Source: an uncultured Planctomycetota bacterium (GTDB lineage: Bacteria; Planctomycetota; Planctomycetia; Pirellulales; Lacipirellulaceae). Taken from it: DNA of 64,000 nucleotides. The notes beneath the pieces were generated by a model that was not told where the DNA came from, made no database searches, and worked only from the letters and a program-made list of their open reading frames with translations. The stretch lies in NCBI GenBank assembly GCA_963719315.1, contig CAVRBU010000001.1, forward strand, positions 96,001-160,000. The letters are read 5' to 3'. Below are positions 43,588-47,490 of this stretch, in pieces (position 1 is the stretch's first letter; each line of letters begins with the position of its first letter). The translations under genes were made by a program, and so were the position numbers.

Positions 43588-45768
43588 ATGATCAAACTTG
43601 CTGCGATTTCGTTCACCGAACCCGTACTCTGGGTTTCCGCAATTTGCCTGCTTGTCGCTGGCTGTTCTCAAGACGCGCGTAAAACGCCGGCGAGCAGTTC
43701 TGCAACTCCTTCAACTGCCGCGAGCTCCGCCGGCAGCAATGAAAACAAGGCGACGGACCCCGGGAAGCTCATCCCCCGCCAAGTCCTCTTCGGAAACCCC
43801 GAGCGGGCCCAAGCCCGGCTCAGCCACGATGGAATATGGATCAGCTACCAGGCGCCGGTCGATGGCGTGCTCAACATCTGGGTCGCGCCGGTCGATGATA
43901 TCTCGAAGGCCCAACCCGTCACGCAGGAAAAAGGCCGCCCCATCCCCAGTTACAGTTGGGCCTACGACAACAAGCACATTCTTTACGTGAACGACAAGAA
44001 CGGCGACGAAAACTTCCACCTCTTCGCCACCGACGTCGTAACCCGCGAAACCAAAGACCTCACGCCCATCAAAGGCGTCCGCGCCGAGCTTCAAGAGGTC
44101 AGCGAGAAGTTCCCCAACGAGGTGCTGGTCGGTCTAAACGACCGCGACCCGCGCTACCACGACATCTGGCGGATCAACCTTGAAACCGGCGACAAAAAAC
44201 TCGTTCAGGAAAACCCCGGCATCGCCGGTTATCTCACTGACGACGATTTCAATGTCCGCATGGCAATGGACTACACGCCCACCGGCGGCCAGGTCCTGCG
44301 AATTCCCGAGAAAGAAGGCGACACCAGCCAGTGGAAAGACTTCCTCGAATTCGGCCCGGAAGACGGCATGACCAGCGGCCCCGCCGGCTTCGACAAGACC
44401 GGCCAAACGCTCTACCTCGAAGACAGCCGCAACCGCAACACCGCCGGCCTGTTCGCGATGGACCTCAAGACGGGCGAAACCAAACTCCTCGCCGACGACC
44501 CCCGCACCGACGTCGGCGGTGTCCTCGTTCATCCGACCGAGAAAAATATCCAGGCCGTCTCGTTCACCTATGCCCGCACCGAGTGGAAGATCCTCGACCC
44601 GGCCATCGCGCCAGATATCGATTTCCTCAAAAAGGCTCACGACGGCGACTTCATCGTCACCAGCCGCACGCAGGACGACTCGCAGTGGACCGTCGCTTTC
44701 ATGCCCGACAACGGGCCGGTGAAATTCTATCGCTACGTCCGAACTCCTGAGCGGAAGCTCGTATTCCTGTTCAACAACCGCGATGATCTGGCCGACTATC
44801 CGCTGGTGAAGATGCACGATCGCGTGATCAAATCCCGCGACGGCCTGGACCTCGTGTGCTACCTCTCGCTTCCTCCGGGCAGCGATCCCGATGGCGACGG
44901 CGTGCCCGATCACCCGGTTCCCCTCGTGCTCGACGTCCACGGCGGACCATGGGCCCGCGACGACTGGGGCCTCAACGGCCAACACCAATGGCTCGCCAAC
45001 CGCGGCTATGCCGTGCTCAACGTCAACTACCGCGGCTCGACCGGTTTCGGCAAAGAGTTCATCAACGCCGCCAATGGCGAATGGTCCGGCAAGATGCACA
45101 ACGATCTGCTCGATGCCGTTCAGTGGGCGGTCGACCAGAAAATCGCCGACAAGGACAAAGTCTGCATCATGGGCGGCAGCTACGGCGGCTATGCCACGCT
45201 CGTGGGTCTGACGTACACGCCCGACACATTCGCCTGCGGTGTCGATATCGTCGGCCCGTCGAGCCTCGTCACGCTCCTGCAACACGTGCCCGATTACTGG
45301 CAGCCGTTCATGCCCGTTATGAAAGTCCGCGTCGGCGACGTGAACACCGAAGAGGGCCGCGCCGCATTGTTGAAGCGCTCCCCTCTCACGCTCGTCGATA
45401 AGATCAAGAAGCCGCTCCTGATCGGGCAGGGCGCGCACGATCCCCGCGTCAAGCAACTTGAAGCCGACCAGATCGTCAAGGCGATGACCGAGAAAAAAAT
45501 CCCGGTCACCTACGTGCTCTATCCCGACGAAGGCCACGGCTTCCACCGTCCCGAGAACAACTTGTCGTTCAACGCGGTCACCGAAGCCTTCCTCGCCAAA
45601 CAGCTTGGAGGCCGCTTCGAACCCATCGGCAACGATTTCAAAGGCTCGACAATCACCGTCCCCGCCGGCGCCGACCAGGTCCCAGGCTTGGAAAAGGCAC
45701 TCTCCGCGCTCCCCAAACCCGAGTCAGAACCAAAGCAACCCGAAGGGCCTCCTACCGATAAGAAGTAA
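43588..45768 (+). CDS. S9-family dipeptidyl/acylaminoacyl peptidase, probable lipoprotein
   Basis: LVAGC lipobox; HGGP, GGSYGG, DPRV, DEGHGF catalytic motifs. Confidence 0.93.
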   Translation: MIKLAAISFTEPVLWVSAICLLVAGCSQDARKTPASSSATPSTAASSAGSNENKATDPGKLIPRQVLFGNPERAQARLSHDGIWISYQAPVDGVLNIWVAPVDDISKAQPVTQEKGRPIPSYSWAYDNKHILYVNDKNGDENFHLFATDVVTRETKDLTPIKGVRAELQEVSEKFPNEVLVGLNDRDPRYHDIWRINLETGDKKLVQENPGIAGYLTDDDFNVRMAMDYTPTGGQVLRIPEKEGDTSQWKDFLEFGPEDGMTSGPAGFDKTGQTLYLEDSRNRNTAGLFAMDLKTGETKLLADDPRTDVGGVLVHPTEKNIQAVSFTYARTEWKILDPAIAPDIDFLKKAHDGDFIVTSRTQDDSQWTVAFMPDNGPVKFYRYVRTPERKLVFLFNNRDDLADYPLVKMHDRVIKSRDGLDLVCYLSLPPGSDPDGDGVPDHPVPLVLDVHGGPWARDDWGLNGQHQWLANRGYAVLNVNYRGSTGFGKEFINAANGEWSGKMHNDLLDAVQWAVDQKIADKDKVCIMGGSYGGYATLVGLTYTPDTFACGVDIVGPSSLVTLLQHVPDYWQPFMPVMKVRVGDVNTEEGRAALLKRSPLTLVDKIKKPLLIGQGAHDPRVKQLEADQIVKAMTEKKIPVTYVLYPDEGHGFHRPENNLSFNAVTEAFLAKQLGGRFEPIGNDFKGSTITVPAGADQVPGLEKALSALPKPESEPKQPEGPPTDKK

Positions 45769-45782
45769 TCGACAAGACCCCT

Positions 45783-45805
45783 GTTCCCACGCACCGCGTG
45801 GGAAC
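45783..45805. repeat. Short REP-like palindrome or terminator
   Basis: GTTCCCACGC-ACC-GCGTGGGAAC just after the peptidase stop codon. Confidence 0.6.
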
Positions 45806-45836
45806 GAGGACTCATCGCACTTCTGCCAAAACCCCC

Positions 45837-45864
45837 TTGCACTTCCAGCACTTCCAGGCATAAT
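45837..45864 (+). promoter_or_regulatory. Putative sigma70 promoter for the aroF leader (predicted leaderless start at ATG 45872)
   Basis: TTGCAC-16 nt-CATAAT, with the ATG 8 nt after the -10 box. Confidence 0.6.
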
Positions 45865-45871
45865 GCACTAC

Positions 45872-45946
45872 ATGAGTCGCTCGTTCTGGTACTACTACTG
45901 GTTTACCTTTACCCGCCTGGGTAGCGGGACCGGAGCTAGTACGTAA
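45872..45946 (+). CDS. Aromatic amino acid attenuator leader peptide MSRSFWYYYWFTFTRLGSGTGAST
   Basis: 8 aromatic codons within 9 positions; upstream of DAHP synthase; followed by an intrinsic terminator. Confidence 0.88.
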   Translation: MSRSFWYYYWFTFTRLGSGTGAST

Positions 45947-45973
45947 GCGATTCACAACACTAGACTCAACCGG

Positions 45974-46012
45974 CCCCCGAGACCCAGTCACTTGGCTCTC
46001 GGGGGTTTTTTT
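45974..46012 (+). terminator. Attenuator intrinsic terminator
   Basis: CCCCCGAGA..TCTCGGGGG stem followed by T7. Confidence 0.9.
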
Positions 46013-46055
46013 GTTGGTTGAGAGTTGAGAGATGAGTGTTGAGGGAGGAGGTAAA

Positions 46056-46418
46056 ATGTTTGGTTTTGAAAAGCTAGAAGTATGGCAAAAGGCAATCGAA
46101 CTATCGGACCGCGTTTACGTGATTACTCGGCCCTTTCCCTCGGATGAAAAGTTTGGGCTAACAAGTCAGATGCGTCGATCTGCAGTGTCGGTGGCTTCCA
46201 ACATTGCTGAAGGAAGCGGGCGTGGATCAAATAACGACTTTGCGAGATTCATCGAGATTTCATACGGCTCGCTCATGGAATTGATTACCCAGTGCGCAAT
46301 CGCGAATCGCCAAGGCTTTTTGAGCGTGTCGGAATTCAAAGAGGCTTACCAACGTGCAGAGCAAATTGCCCGCATGCTCAGCGGACTAAAGTCTTCACTG
46401 CTTGCGACCAAGAAATAA
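46056..46418 (+). CDS. Four-helix-bundle protein (TIGR02436 / 23S rRNA IVS protein family)
   Basis: [58 protein letters not shown]. Confidence 0.93.
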
Positions 46419-46476
46419 CCACCGAAAAACCCTCAACCCTCGCCCCTCAACCCTCAACCTTCGCCAGGAGCCTCCC

Positions 46477-47490
46477 ATGATCATCGTCATGCGGCGTGAC
46501 GCCAAAAAACAGGATATCGAACACATGATCAAACAAGTCGAATCGCTGGGACTGAAACCCACCGTGCTCGAAGGCACCGAACGGTTCGTCATTGCGGCCA
46601 TCGGCGACGAGCGCAACGCACCCGTCGGCATTCTCGAAAGCGGTCCGGGCGTCGACGAAGTGCTTCCCGTCCTCGCGCCGTACAAGCTGGCCAGCCTGGA
46701 AACCAGGTCCGAGCCAACCGTCGTTCGCGCCGGCAGCCTCACCATCGGCGGCGGCCACTTCGGCATCATCGCAGGCCCCTGCTCCGTCGAAAGCGAAGAG
46801 CAAATCGTGGCGTCTGCCCGCGCGATCAAGAAGGCAGGCGCGACCGCGCTCCGCGGTGGCGCGTTCAAGCCGCGCACCAGCCCGTATAGCTTCCAAGGCC
46901 ACAAGGAAGAGGGGCTCAAAATGCTCGCCACGGCCCGGGCCGAAACGGGCCTCGCGGTCGTCACGGAAGTCGTCGCCGGGGAAGATGTCGACCTCGTCGC
47001 CGAATACGCCGACGTCCTCCAAGTCGGCGCCCGCAATATGCAGAACTACCGCCTGCTGGAAGCCGTCGGCAAAACGCGCCGTCCCGTCCTCCTTAAACGT
47101 GGTCCCAGCGCCACCGTTGAAGAACTGCTGCTTGCCGCCGAGTACATCCTCGACGCCGGCAACCAGCAAGTGATGCTCTGCGAACGCGGCATCCGCACGT
47201 TCGAGGCCCATACGCGGTTCACGTTGCCCCTCGCGACCGTGCCCTACCTGCAGGGAAAAACGCACCTGCCGATCGTCGTCGATCCGAGCCACGGCACCGG
47301 CCACACGCCGCTCGTGCCCGCGCTCGCCCGGGCGAGTGTCGCCGCCGGCGCCGACGGCATCATTGTCGAAGTCCATCCGAACCCGGAAAAAGCCCTCAGC
47401 GACGGCTACCAATCGATGACGTTCAAACAATTCGAAGACATGATGACCGCCTGCCGCCGCATCGCCGCAGCGATGGAGATGAAGATGTAA
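46477..47490 (+). CDS. aroF: DAHP synthase class I-beta with N-terminal regulatory domain
   Basis: MIIVM start, [39 protein letters not shown]. Confidence 0.96.

What the first reader, a model, noticed from the sequence alone, without database searches (positions are those of the whole stretch)
45837..46012. Leaderless Phe/Trp/Tyr triple-sensing transcription attenuator for DAHP synthase
Seen: a 24-aa leader with FWYYYWFTF. A 1:2 hairpin (GTACTA..CTGGT..TACCC-GCCT-GGGTA..ACCGG..TAGTAC), a potential 2:3 antiterminator (GGGTAGCGGGACCGG with CCGGCCCCCGAGACCC) and a 3:4 terminator with T7 are mutually exclusive. The promoter places +1 at about the ATG. Known: trpL/pheL-type ribosome-mediated attenuation. 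Inference: one leader integrates all three aromatic amino acids at the first shikimate step; I know no description of this in Planctomycetota.
Basis: partly seen in the sequence, partly recalled or inferred. Interest (0 to 1): 0.82.

Follow-up and report, generated by a model that had tools for sequence, protein, structure and literature searches.

The report
Aromatic leader-peptide attenuator before DAHP synthase
A 24-codon mini-gene packed with Phe, Trp and Tyr codons, followed by a switchable transcription stop signal, sits ahead of this planctomycete's only detectable gene for the first step of aromatic amino-acid synthesis; it looks like a textbook ribosome-read supply sensor, conserved across its whole order but not catalogued.

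Summary
Window 45872-45946 encodes MSRSFWYYYWFTFTRLGSGTGAST. It is followed by three mutually exclusive helices (1:2, 2:3, 3:4) and a T7 run.

Comparison shows the element is real. A covariance model finds it in 117 of 151 sampled genomes of the same order; named matches say Pirellulales. In the loci examined it lies upstream of the DAHP synthase ortholog.

- The antiterminator (2:3) and terminator (3:4) show compensatory base changes.
- The aromatic codons vary synonymously and among F, Y and W.
- The Trp-codon-to-stop distance is fixed.
- A conserved TTG-N16-17-cAnAAT promoter ends 6-7 nt before the ATG in most relatives, so a leaderless leader mRNA is plausible. No RNA data were available to test this.

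The cassette sits inside a heptamer-repeat hairpin, and DAHP synthase follows it.

The mechanism is classical ribosome-mediated attenuation. The closest described case is Corynebacterium glutamicum aroR-aroF. I found no Rfam match and no paper describing it in Planctomycetota. This scan has noted the same device before on other DNA (e1-2706519, e1-2410790). Sensing of all three amino acids is inferred, not shown.

The parts
45837..45842 (+). -35-like hexamer TTGCAC (conserved CTTGC in relatives)
   Evidence: CTTG is invariant in the 27-sequence alignment A1. A TTG hexamer with a 16-17 nt spacer is found in 49 of 58 distinct upstream regions. The simple scanner did not call it.
45859..45864 (+). 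-10-like hexamer CATAAT, 7 nt before the ATG
   Evidence: A2, A4 and T6 of the hexamer are invariant in A1. The hexamer ends 6-7 nt before the start codon in 47 of 58 distinct relatives by script, plus 3 more by eye.
45872..45946 (+). Leader peptide ORF, 24 codons plus TAA: MSRSFWYYYWFTFTRLGSGTGAST
   Evidence: 32 of 47 non-redundant relatives have 24 codons. The conserved Trp codon lies 15 codons from the end of the peptide in 42 of 45.
45884..45910 (+). Regulatory aromatic codon cluster FWYYYWFTF (codons 5-13)
   Evidence: It is the genome-wide top aromatic cluster among small ORFs. Codons vary synonymously and among F, Y and W across relatives.
45889..45915 (+). Segment 1: 5' arm of the 1:2 hairpin, overlapping the Tyr/Trp/Phe codons and including CUGGU with the conserved Trp codon
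   Evidence: MFE. The RNAalifold consensus pairs CUGGU with RCCGG and CCC with GGG. Paired cells are 96.9% and 86.2% on 58 distinct sequences, with little covariation.
45918..45943 (+). Segment 2: pairs either with segment 1 or with segment 3
   Evidence: Nucleotide-level conservation of GGTnGCGGGRCCGGA includes synonymous sites.
45960..45986 (+). Segment 3: 3' arm of the antiterminator; 45972-45986 is also the 5' arm of the terminator
   Evidence: The antiterminator hairpin 45918-45986 folds at -26.0 kcal/mol. The 2:3 helix is 86.5% paired; 6 of 12 pairs carry changes on both sides; 36 compensatory cells against 12.6 in shuffles. It forms in the MFE of 26 of 27 relatives.
45972..46012 (+). 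Intrinsic terminator: stem-loop 45972-46005 plus T7 run 46006-46012
   Evidence: -25.1 kcal/mol. The 3:4 helix is 91.3% paired and 8 of 13 pairs carry changes on both sides; 96.6% paired on A3.
46016..46045 (+). Left arm of a heptamer-repeat hairpin (GGTTGAGAGTTGAGAGATGAGTGTTGAGGG)
   Evidence: It is 83% complementary to 46430-46459. Relatives carry species-specific heptamer hairpins at this position.
46056..46418 (+). 23S_rRNA_IVP-family four-helix-bundle gene in the loop of the heptamer hairpin
   Evidence: Pfam PF05635, E = 1.4e-39. GGAGGAGG lies 4 nt before the ATG. A homolog sits at the same place in 6 of 18 genus loci.
46430..46459 (+). Right arm of the heptamer-repeat hairpin
46477..47490 (+). 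DAHP synthase (ferredoxin-like regulatory domain plus DAHP_synth_1), the regulated gene; AGGAG at 46466-46470
   Evidence: Pfam PF18152 and PF00793. The assembly has only one other PF00793 gene, of 288 aa and 33% identical, and no PF01474 match.

Best explanation
This is a classical ribosome-mediated (leader-peptide) transcription attenuator that sets how much RNA polymerase reads on into the cassette gene and then DAHP synthase.

Proposed course of events (inferred):
1. Transcription starts at or 1-2 nt before the ATG at 45872, so the leader mRNA is leaderless.
2. A ribosome translates the 24-codon leader.
3. When Phe-, Tyr- and Trp-tRNAs are charged, the ribosome runs through segment 2 to the stop codon. 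Segment 2 is then unavailable, the 3:4 terminator forms, and transcription ends at the T7 run (46006-46012).
4. When any of these tRNAs is scarce, the ribosome stalls in the FWYYYWFTF cluster and covers segment 1. Segment 2 is left free and pairs with segment 3 before segment 4 has been made. The terminator cannot form and the polymerase reads through.
5. With no translation at all, 1:2 and 3:4 both form and transcription terminates.

Shown here: the ORF, the three alternative helices and their similar stabilities, their conservation and covariation, and the link to DAHP synthase.

Inferred: the transcription start, translation of the leader, termination, and which amino acids are actually sensed.
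For: Anatomy in the window. The 1:2 hairpin and terminator are in the MFE, with z = -4.49. Once segment 1 is removed and segment 4 is not yet made, the antiterminator folds at -26.0 kcal/mol, against -25.1 for the terminator.

Conservation.
- An aromatic leader ORF lies upstream of the DAHP synthase ortholog in 27 of 29 loci with upstream DNA, from 18 genera.
- Model R1 matches 117 of 151 genomes of the order, 77 of 95 genera.
- 18 of 80 loci fetched from a pattern scan of named genomes match strongly, and all 18 carry Planctomycetota names: 8 Pirellulales, 2 Thermoguttaceae, 1 Pirellulaceae, 6 Planctomycetota and 1 Planctomycetaceae.
- The leader keeps its place next to DAHP synthase whether or not the cassette gene lies between them. 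The spacer is 72-147 nt in 11 genus loci and 464-525 nt in 7.

Structure.
- 2:3 helix on A1: 81.5% of cells paired and 5 of 12 pairs with changes on both sides; 0 of 500 shuffles reach this.
- 2:3 helix on A3, an alignment fitted to a model that does not contain this helix: 86.5% paired, 6 of 12 pairs, and 36 compensatory cells against 12.6 +/- 4.7 in shuffles; slid controls give 2-8.
- 3:4 helix: 91.3% paired, 8 of 13 pairs with changes on both sides.
- In 26 of 27 relatives the MFE of the segment 2-3 stretch is the antiterminator. Mean energies are 1:2 -26.1, antiterminator -29.6 and terminator -24.7 kcal/mol.

Coding signature.
- 32 of 47 leaders have 24 codons.
- The Trp codon is 15 codons from the end of the peptide in 42 of 45.
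- The codon before Trp is TTC 22, TTT 16, TAT 3, TAC 2.
- Other cluster positions switch among F, Y and W codons.
- Segment 2, by contrast, is conserved at the nucleotide level including third codon positions.

Translation start. The -10-like hexamer ends 6-7 nt before the start codon in 47 of 58 distinct relatives. The two that lack the adjacent promoter (L123, L072) have GGAG upstream of the ATG instead.

Physiological sense. This is the only DAHP synthase found in the assembly, which is 90.7% complete.

Other attenuators in the same organisms. The same genomes also carry a Leu-rich leader plus terminator before leuA, so attenuation is in use in this order.
Against: - No RNA evidence of any kind was available; no listed sequencing run is on record as RNA.
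- At equilibrium, with a ribosome mask at any codon, the terminator stays in the MFE. The switch therefore has to be kinetic, as it is in classical attenuators.
- The 1:2 helix is conserved but shows almost no covariation: 1 pair with a change on both sides in each of its two helices.
- The simple scanner called no promoter and missed this terminator.
- 34 of 151 genomes of the order have no match, with two families at 0 of 9 and 0 of 3.
- 2 of 29 ortholog loci have no leader.
- In C. glutamicum aroR, Tyr supply had no effect although Tyr codons are present (PMC11802643, passage read). Codon content therefore does not prove sensing of all three amino acids.
- Related sequences are not independent, so the shuffle controls overstate significance.
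Confidence: 0.85

Rival explanations
1. It is an attenuator of the same kind, but in practice it senses only one or two of the three aromatic amino acids (for example Phe, or Phe plus Trp). The remaining aromatic codons would be kept because they are part of the RNA helices.
For: - In C. glutamicum aroR (Phe-Tyr-Phe) only Phe limitation raised transcription (PMC11802643, passage).
- The invariant Trp codon UGG lies inside the conserved CUGGU:RCCGG helix.
- In this genus the Tyr codons GUAYUAC pair with the leader's 3' end.
- With a ribosome mask at the early codons (F5, W6), the inner 1:2 helix still forms.
- 3 of 47 leaders lack W or Y.
Against: - 44 of 47 leaders keep all three residue types.
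- Cluster positions outside the conserved helix still stay aromatic while switching among F, Y and W codons.
- This is the only DAHP synthase found, so responding to all three products would make sense.
Confidence: 0.3
2. The ORF-terminator unit is a self-standing small-protein or small-RNA gene with its own terminator. It only happens to lie beside DAHP synthase and does not control it.
For: - The peptide's C-terminal half (S/T-P-P-G-R-G-A-G-G-G or TRLGSGTG) is conserved.
- The unit has its own promoter and a strong terminator.
Against: - The C-terminal conservation is at the nucleotide level, including synonymous sites, and those bases covary with the terminator's 5' arm.
- The unit stays upstream of the DAHP synthase ortholog in 27 of 29 loci, and in 6 loci outside the order.
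- No separate promoter for DAHP synthase is evident in the 38-147 nt spacers.
Confidence: 0.05
3. The RNA is a riboswitch, T-box or protein-bound attenuator (TRAP-like) that senses aromatic amino acids or tRNA directly. The ORF would be incidental.
For: Alternative terminator and antiterminator helices are common to all these mechanisms.
Against: - No Rfam family matches at E up to 10 apart from two irrelevant weak hits.
- The reading frame, its length, the start codon position and the aromatic identity of the codons are all conserved with synonymous variation. A ligand-binding RNA would not need that.
Confidence: 0.03

Closest known systems
Corynebacterium glutamicum aroR-aroF leader-peptide attenuator (Neshat et al. 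2014, seen only as summarised in PMC11802643, passages; aroF leader also in PMC4046766, passages)
   Same: A short leader ORF with mixed aromatic codons plus a terminator, upstream of a DAHP synthase gene. Ribosome stalling is reported to raise transcription.
   Different: - It is in a different phylum. Homology could not be tested because I held no aroR sequence.
- The aroR core is Phe-Tyr-Phe, without Trp as summarised. Here the leader has 5-8 aromatic residues, and Trp is present in 45 of 47.
- C. glutamicum has two DAHP synthases (PMC4046766). Here only one was found.
- Only Phe limitation acted on aroR.
Escherichia coli trpL and pheL attenuators (Rfam Trp_leader RF00513, Phe_leader RF01859; accessions recalled and, for RF00513, named in PMC4046766)
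   Same: The same four-segment logic applies. The regulatory codons overlap segment 1, and 1:2, 2:3 and 3:4 are mutually exclusive. The stop codon is placed so that a finishing ribosome blocks segment 2.
   Different: - There is no sequence or structure match to any Rfam family.
- Those leaders each hold codons for one amino acid and control terminal-branch operons, not the common first step.
- Those leaders have a 5' UTR with a ribosome-binding site (recalled).
uORFC-13-1 motif upstream of aroF in Acholeplasma (PMC8632094, passages read)
   Same: A predicted uORF with Phe codons next to a terminator, found exclusively upstream of DAHP synthase. Promoter elements are part of the motif.
   Different: - It is in Mollicutes, is U-rich, and holds mainly Phe codons.
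- It is a prediction only.
- It was not compared by sequence here.
Leaderless regulatory short ORFs of Actinobacteria: polycysteine leaderless sORFs of mycobacteria (bioRxiv 10.1101/834739, abstract read); C. glutamicum ilvB leader made without a ribosome-binding site (Morbach 2000, seen only in the reference list of PMC4046766)
   Same: The sensory ORF starts at the 5' end of the transcript, so no Shine-Dalgarno sequence is involved.
   Different: The mycobacterial elements act on translation by unmasking the downstream ribosome-binding site. Here the output is an intrinsic terminator. The leaderless start here is inferred from promoter spacing only.

Membership tests
Ribosome-mediated (leader-peptide) transcription attenuators | Short ORF upstream of a biosynthetic gene, enriched in codons for the pathway's own amino acid(s) | tested here: met
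   8 of 9 consecutive residues are F, W or Y, which is unique among 53,712 small ORFs of the genome. The ORF is conserved upstream of DAHP synthase in 27 of 29 loci.
Ribosome-mediated (leader-peptide) transcription attenuators | Intrinsic terminator between the leader ORF and the structural gene | tested here: met
   The stem folds at -25.1 kcal/mol and is followed by T7. The helix is 91.3% paired and 8 of 13 pairs are compensatory.
Ribosome-mediated (leader-peptide) transcription attenuators | Antiterminator (2:3) mutually exclusive with the terminator | tested here: met
   -26.0 kcal/mol. It forms in the MFE of 26 of 27 relatives. Covariation is shown.
Ribosome-mediated (leader-peptide) transcription attenuators | 1:2 hairpin whose 5' arm overlaps the regulatory codons, so that a stalled ribosome frees segment 2 | tested here: met
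   Segment 1 (45889-45915) overlaps codons Y7-T14. The conserved CUGGU:RCCGG and CCC:GGG pairs are 96.9% and 86.2% paired but hardly covary.
Ribosome-mediated (leader-peptide) transcription attenuators | The leader is translated, and read-through rises on starvation for the cognate amino acid | not testable with these tools
   No listed run is on record as RNA. Translation is supported only indirectly, by synonymous variation and the fixed frame.
Rfam amino-acid leader families (Trp_leader, Phe_leader, Leu_leader, His_leader, Thr_leader) and T-box | Match to the family covariance model at or near its gathering score | tested here: not met
   cmscan of 45500-46600 at E up to 10 gave only sR53 (22.2 bits) and anti-hemB (13.7 bits), both far below gathering score.
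Leaderless mRNA | Transcription start at, or within a few nt of, the start codon; no Shine-Dalgarno sequence | tested here: inconclusive
   The -10-like hexamer ends 7 nt before the ATG here, and 6-7 nt before it in 47 of 58 relatives, which leaves no room for a Shine-Dalgarno sequence. No transcription start data were available.
C. glutamicum aroR-aroF attenuator | Sequence or structure homology to aroR | not tested
The resemblance is functional: same target gene and aromatic codons.

The most novel reading that the evidence does not exclude
One leaderless 24-codon ORF works as a three-input sensor: shortage of Phe-, Tyr- or Trp-tRNA each opens the gate on the cell's only DAHP synthase. It would be a regulatory RNA family that spans Pirellulales and reaches other Planctomycetota, and the first attenuators described for this phylum. 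The read-through RNA must then cross an IVS-type heptamer-repeat hairpin, with or without a four-helix-bundle gene in its loop. That hairpin could add a second, processing-level control step on the same mRNA.
Probability: 0.3. Interest if true: 0.6.

Novelty: new member of a known kind. Interest (0 to 1): 0.45.

Why it matters
Gene regulation in Planctomycetota is almost unstudied. My searches found no paper that links this phylum with attenuators, leader peptides or DAHP synthase control.

This work gives a well-delimited cis-regulatory RNA family, not in Rfam, with a testable mechanism. Model R1 has 140 positions and matches 117 of 151 genomes of the order.

It shows that textbook attenuation is used in this order at the common entry point of aromatic synthesis, and also at leuA.

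It offers a natural case for asking whether one mixed-codon leader can integrate three amino-acid signals. It is also a natural case of a sensory ORF that probably starts at the 5' end of its mRNA.

For genome annotation, it explains a conserved 'intergenic' block and a missed small ORF.

Tried and rejected
- **Rfam scan of the region.** Nothing relevant was found.
- **Simple promoter/terminator scanner.** It called neither element. I relied on folding and conservation instead.
- **Equilibrium folding with ribosome masks.** The terminator never disappears. I rejected this as a test of a kinetic switch and folded the nascent transcript without segment 4 instead.
- **Sequencing runs.** No RNA holder was listed: 10 runs, and the best holds 0.35 of the sampled words.
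- **Model R1 across the phylum outside the order.** Only 6 of 150 genomes gave weak matches (E 1e-4 to 9e-4). Two of these (G215, G185) lie 110 and 41 nt upstream of their DAHP synthase. I did not check where the other four lie.
- **Pattern scan of named genomes.** 62 of the 80 fetched loci, mostly GC-rich Actinomycetota and Proteobacteria, had no model match and I take them as chance matches.
- **A second aromatic small ORF in the own genome** (contig C3, MFRYFYIFWQ). Rejected: it has a GTG start, no recognisable aromatic-pathway ORF follows, and the DNA looks like the end of a coding region.
- **Weaker second matches of R1 in the order.** These turned out to be Leu leaders before leuA, not aromatic leaders.
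- **Not run.** No structure prediction, complex prediction or large protein searches, because no open question needed them.

Full report
**1. What is in the window**

Positions 45872-45946 on the + strand are an ATG-started ORF of 24 codons, MSRSFWYYYWFTFTRLGSGTGAST. Codons 5-13 read FWYYYWFTF.

Folding 45865-46015 as RNA gives -61.5 kcal/mol, with z = -4.49 against 200 dinucleotide shuffles; none of the shuffles folds as well. The structure has two parts:
- a long hairpin at 45889-45943, whose 5' arm is made of the Tyr/Trp/Phe codons and whose 3' arm is the end of the ORF;
- a GC-rich stem-loop at 45972-46005 followed by T7 at 46006-46012.

Upstream lie TTGCAC (45837-45842), a 16-nt spacer, CATAAT (45859-45864), and then 7 nt to the ATG.

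The simple consensus scanner reported no promoter and did not list this terminator. The -35 matches only 3 of 6 positions and the stem has an internal mismatch.

The aromatic cluster is not a chance feature of the genome. Among 53,712 ATG-started ORFs of 10-40 codons in six frames of the 5.93-Mb assembly, this is the only locus with 8 aromatic residues in a window of 9.

**2. Surroundings**

- Upstream is an S9-family peptidase gene ending at 45768.
- Directly downstream of the terminator is not DAHP synthase but a 23S_rRNA_IVP-family (PF05635) four-helix-bundle gene at 46056-46418.
- DAHP synthase follows at 46477-47490. It has a ferredoxin-like regulatory domain (PF18152) plus PF00793, and AGGAG lies 6 nt before its ATG.
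- The next gene is on the other strand.
- The assembly is 90.7% complete. It holds only one other PF00793 gene, of 288 aa and 33% identical, which is probably KDO8P synthase (my inference). It has no PF01474 (type II) match.

The regulated enzyme is therefore the only DAHP synthase found.

**3. The alternative helices**

I first masked a ribosome at successive codons and folded the whole leader at equilibrium. The terminator stayed in the MFE every time, so a purely thermodynamic switch is not supported.

I then folded the nascent RNA as the classical kinetic model requires, with segment 1 covered and segment 4 not yet made. That gives one long hairpin, 45918-45986, at -26.0 kcal/mol. In it, GGGUAGCGGGACCGG and the following bases pair with CCGGCCCCCGAGACCCA, which takes up the whole 5' arm of the terminator. 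The terminator alone is -25.1 kcal/mol and the leader alone (1:2) is -27.2 kcal/mol.

The three states are thus about equally stable and mutually exclusive, as in trp-type attenuators.

**4. Conservation**

*DAHP synthase loci.* I searched 41 related genomes with the DAHP synthase protein and read the DNA upstream of the best 30 matches.
- 29 of the 30 loci have usable upstream DNA.
- 27 of those 29 carry an aromatic-rich small ORF.
- The two exceptions have other genes or a tRNA upstream.
- The 27 elements align from the -35 to the T-run. CTTG, the A-A-T of the -10, the start codon, GGT.GCGGG.CC and CCCCG...CGGGG are invariant or nearly so.

*Covariance model.* Model R1 was built from ATG to T-run and has 140 positions.
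- It matches 117 of 151 sampled genomes of the order at E <= 0.001.
- It matches 94 of 119 high-quality genomes and 77 of 95 genera.
- Two families have no match, at 0 of 9 and 0 of 3.

Of the 80 loci fetched, 18 match R1 strongly. All 18 bear Planctomycetota names: 8 Pirellulales, 2 Thermoguttaceae, 1 Pirellulaceae, 6 Planctomycetota and 1 Planctomycetaceae. The other 62, from other phyla, do not match.

*Outside the order.* R1 gives only weak matches in 6 of 150 genomes. Two of them lie 110 and 41 nt upstream of the local DAHP synthase. Reading upstream of DAHP synthase in 29 loci from the rest of the phylum shows aromatic small ORFs with a T-run 54-65 nt after their stop in 6 loci (L197, L198, L200, L201, L202, L205). 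All six are among the eight best full-length orthologs with enough upstream DNA.

The device therefore extends beyond the order in diverged form.

**5. Evidence for the structures**

| Helix | Alignment | Cells paired | Pairs changed on both sides | Controls |
|---|---|---|---|---|
| 3:4 | A1 (27 sequences) | 91.3% | 8 of 13 | – |
| 2:3 | A1 (27 sequences) | 81.5% | 5 of 12 | 1.2 in shuffles; 0 of 500 reach it |
| 2:3 | A3 (65 matches, 58 distinct) | 86.5% | 6 of 12; 36 compensatory cells | 12.6 +/- 4.7 in shuffles; 2-8 when slid |

A3 was fitted to a model that does not contain the 2:3 helix, so its 2:3 counts do not lean towards that helix.

In 26 of 27 relatives the MFE of the segment 2-3 stretch is this antiterminator. 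Mean energies are 1:2 -26.1, antiterminator -29.6 and terminator -24.7 kcal/mol.

The order-wide 1:2 helix pairs CUGGU, which contains the conserved Trp codon, with RCCGG, and CCC with GGG. These are 96.9% and 86.2% paired but barely covary. The 1:2 helix therefore rests on conservation and energy.

The sequences are related, so the shuffle controls overstate significance. The slid controls are the fairer comparison.

**6. Evidence that the ORF is read as codons**

Among 47 non-redundant leaders:
- 32 have 24 codons, with a range of 22-28.
- The conserved Trp codon lies 15 codons from the end of the peptide in 42 of 45.
- 44 hold all of F, W and Y. Two lack W and one lacks Y.
- Every leader has 5-8 aromatic residues.
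- The codon before Trp is TTC 22, TTT 16, TAT 3, TAC 2.
- The positions two and three codons before Trp mix TAT, TAC, TTT, TTC and TGG.

This is amino-acid-class conservation with synonymous change.

The peptide's C-terminal half (TRLGSGTG here, S-P-P-G-R-G-A-G-G-G elsewhere) behaves differently. It is conserved base by base, including third codon positions, and those bases are segment 2. That part is therefore shaped by RNA pairing rather than by the peptide.

**7. Leaderless start**

In 58 distinct upstream regions:
- A -10-like hexamer (CATAAT, CAGAAT and CACAAT, 12 each) ends 6 nt (35 cases) or 7 nt (12 cases) before the start codon. Three further cases were mis-scored by the script and fit by eye.
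- A TTG hexamer sits 16-17 nt upstream of it in 49.

That leaves no room for a Shine-Dalgarno sequence and puts the expected start at about the A of the ATG. Two relatives without this promoter (L123, L072) have GGAG upstream of the ATG instead. This again points to a translated ORF.

This remains inference. No run on record as RNA holds the stretch.

**8. Mechanism proposed**

See Best explanation. Shown:
- the anatomy;
- the energetic balance of the three states;
- conservation and covariation;
- the link to the sole DAHP synthase.

Inferred:
- the transcription start;
- translation of the leader;
- termination;
- the response to each amino acid.

With a ribosome at F5 or W6 the inner 1:2 helix can still form. 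The effective stall sites are therefore probably Y9-W10-F11-(T12)-F13, a stretch that still contains all three residue types.

**9. Comparison with what is known**

- The logic is that of E. coli trpL and pheL, but no Rfam family matches.
- The closest described system is the aroR leader (Phe-Tyr-Phe) before aroF in Corynebacterium glutamicum. There Phe limitation, but not Tyr limitation, raised transcription (PMC11802643 and PMC4046766, passages read). I did not see the primary paper, Neshat 2014.
- A predicted uORF motif before aroF exists in Acholeplasma (PMC8632094, passages).
- Leaderless sensory ORFs are known in mycobacteria (bioRxiv 10.1101/834739, abstract).
- For Planctomycetota, my two full-text searches found no paper on attenuators, leader peptides or DAHP synthase control. 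One paper treats planctomycete 'leader genes' only statistically (PMC4833913, passages). Subscription journals are not covered by the library.
- This scan has noted the same device before on other DNA: e1-2706519 and e1-2410790 in planctomycetes, and similar leaders in cyanobacteria, Chloroflexota and archaea (AI notes). I tested only the planctomycete spread.

**10. Verdict**

This is a real, conserved, uncatalogued member of a textbook class. 'Leaderless' and 'triple-sensing' remain well-motivated inferences.

Noticed in passing
window 46016-46459: The 23S_rRNA_IVP (PF05635) gene at 46056-46418 lies in the loop of a hairpin whose 30-nt arms are tandem heptamers (GTTGAGR and its complement), 83% complementary. 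It sits between the attenuator's terminator and DAHP synthase, so it should be co-transcribed on read-through. Earlier notes of this scan describe such cassettes widely (e1-730272, e1-5234694).
   Followed up: partly
L004, L005, L009, L010, L012-L017, L019 (DNA between the terminator and DAHP synthase): In the 11 genus loci without the cassette gene, the same position holds a hairpin of species-specific heptamer repeats (CGTAAGT, GTCCGTT, GGTTCAG and others) with a short loop. L010 shows this least clearly. These are either empty or scarred cassette sites, or a conserved structured spacer of unknown role. L006 has a 474-nt spacer with no IVP match.
   Followed up: partly
own genome, 11 PF05635 loci: 10 of the 11 IVP-family genes of the assembly are flanked by inverted arms of 16-40 nt, most of them built from locus-specific 7-8 nt tandem repeats that differ at each locus.
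   Followed up: partly
own genome contig C13, minus strand (T-run at reverse-complement position 137852); also L187-L190, L193, L196: A Leu-rich leader peptide (MISRTLLLGLLLASRLGGA here; MASLNLLRLLLLALSGRQP and similar in other genera) plus a terminator lies upstream of leuA. In the relatives these appeared as weaker second matches of model R1. The own genome's Leu leader seems to have a roughly 45-nt 5' UTR rather than a leaderless start.
   Followed up: partly
leader peptides of relatives (alignment A3): 17 of 54 distinct leader peptides carry Pro-Pro, and 12 carry Pro-Pro-Gly, right after the aromatic cluster. PPG is known, from memory, as an EF-P-dependent stalling motif. Here it may simply follow from the CCCGCCGGG bases needed for pairing. 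The window's own leader has TRLG instead.
   Followed up: no
window 45785-45803: A short inverted repeat (TTCCCACGC..GCGTGGGAA) without a T-run follows the stop of the upstream S9 peptidase gene. It may be that gene's terminator or a stabilising hairpin.
   Followed up: no
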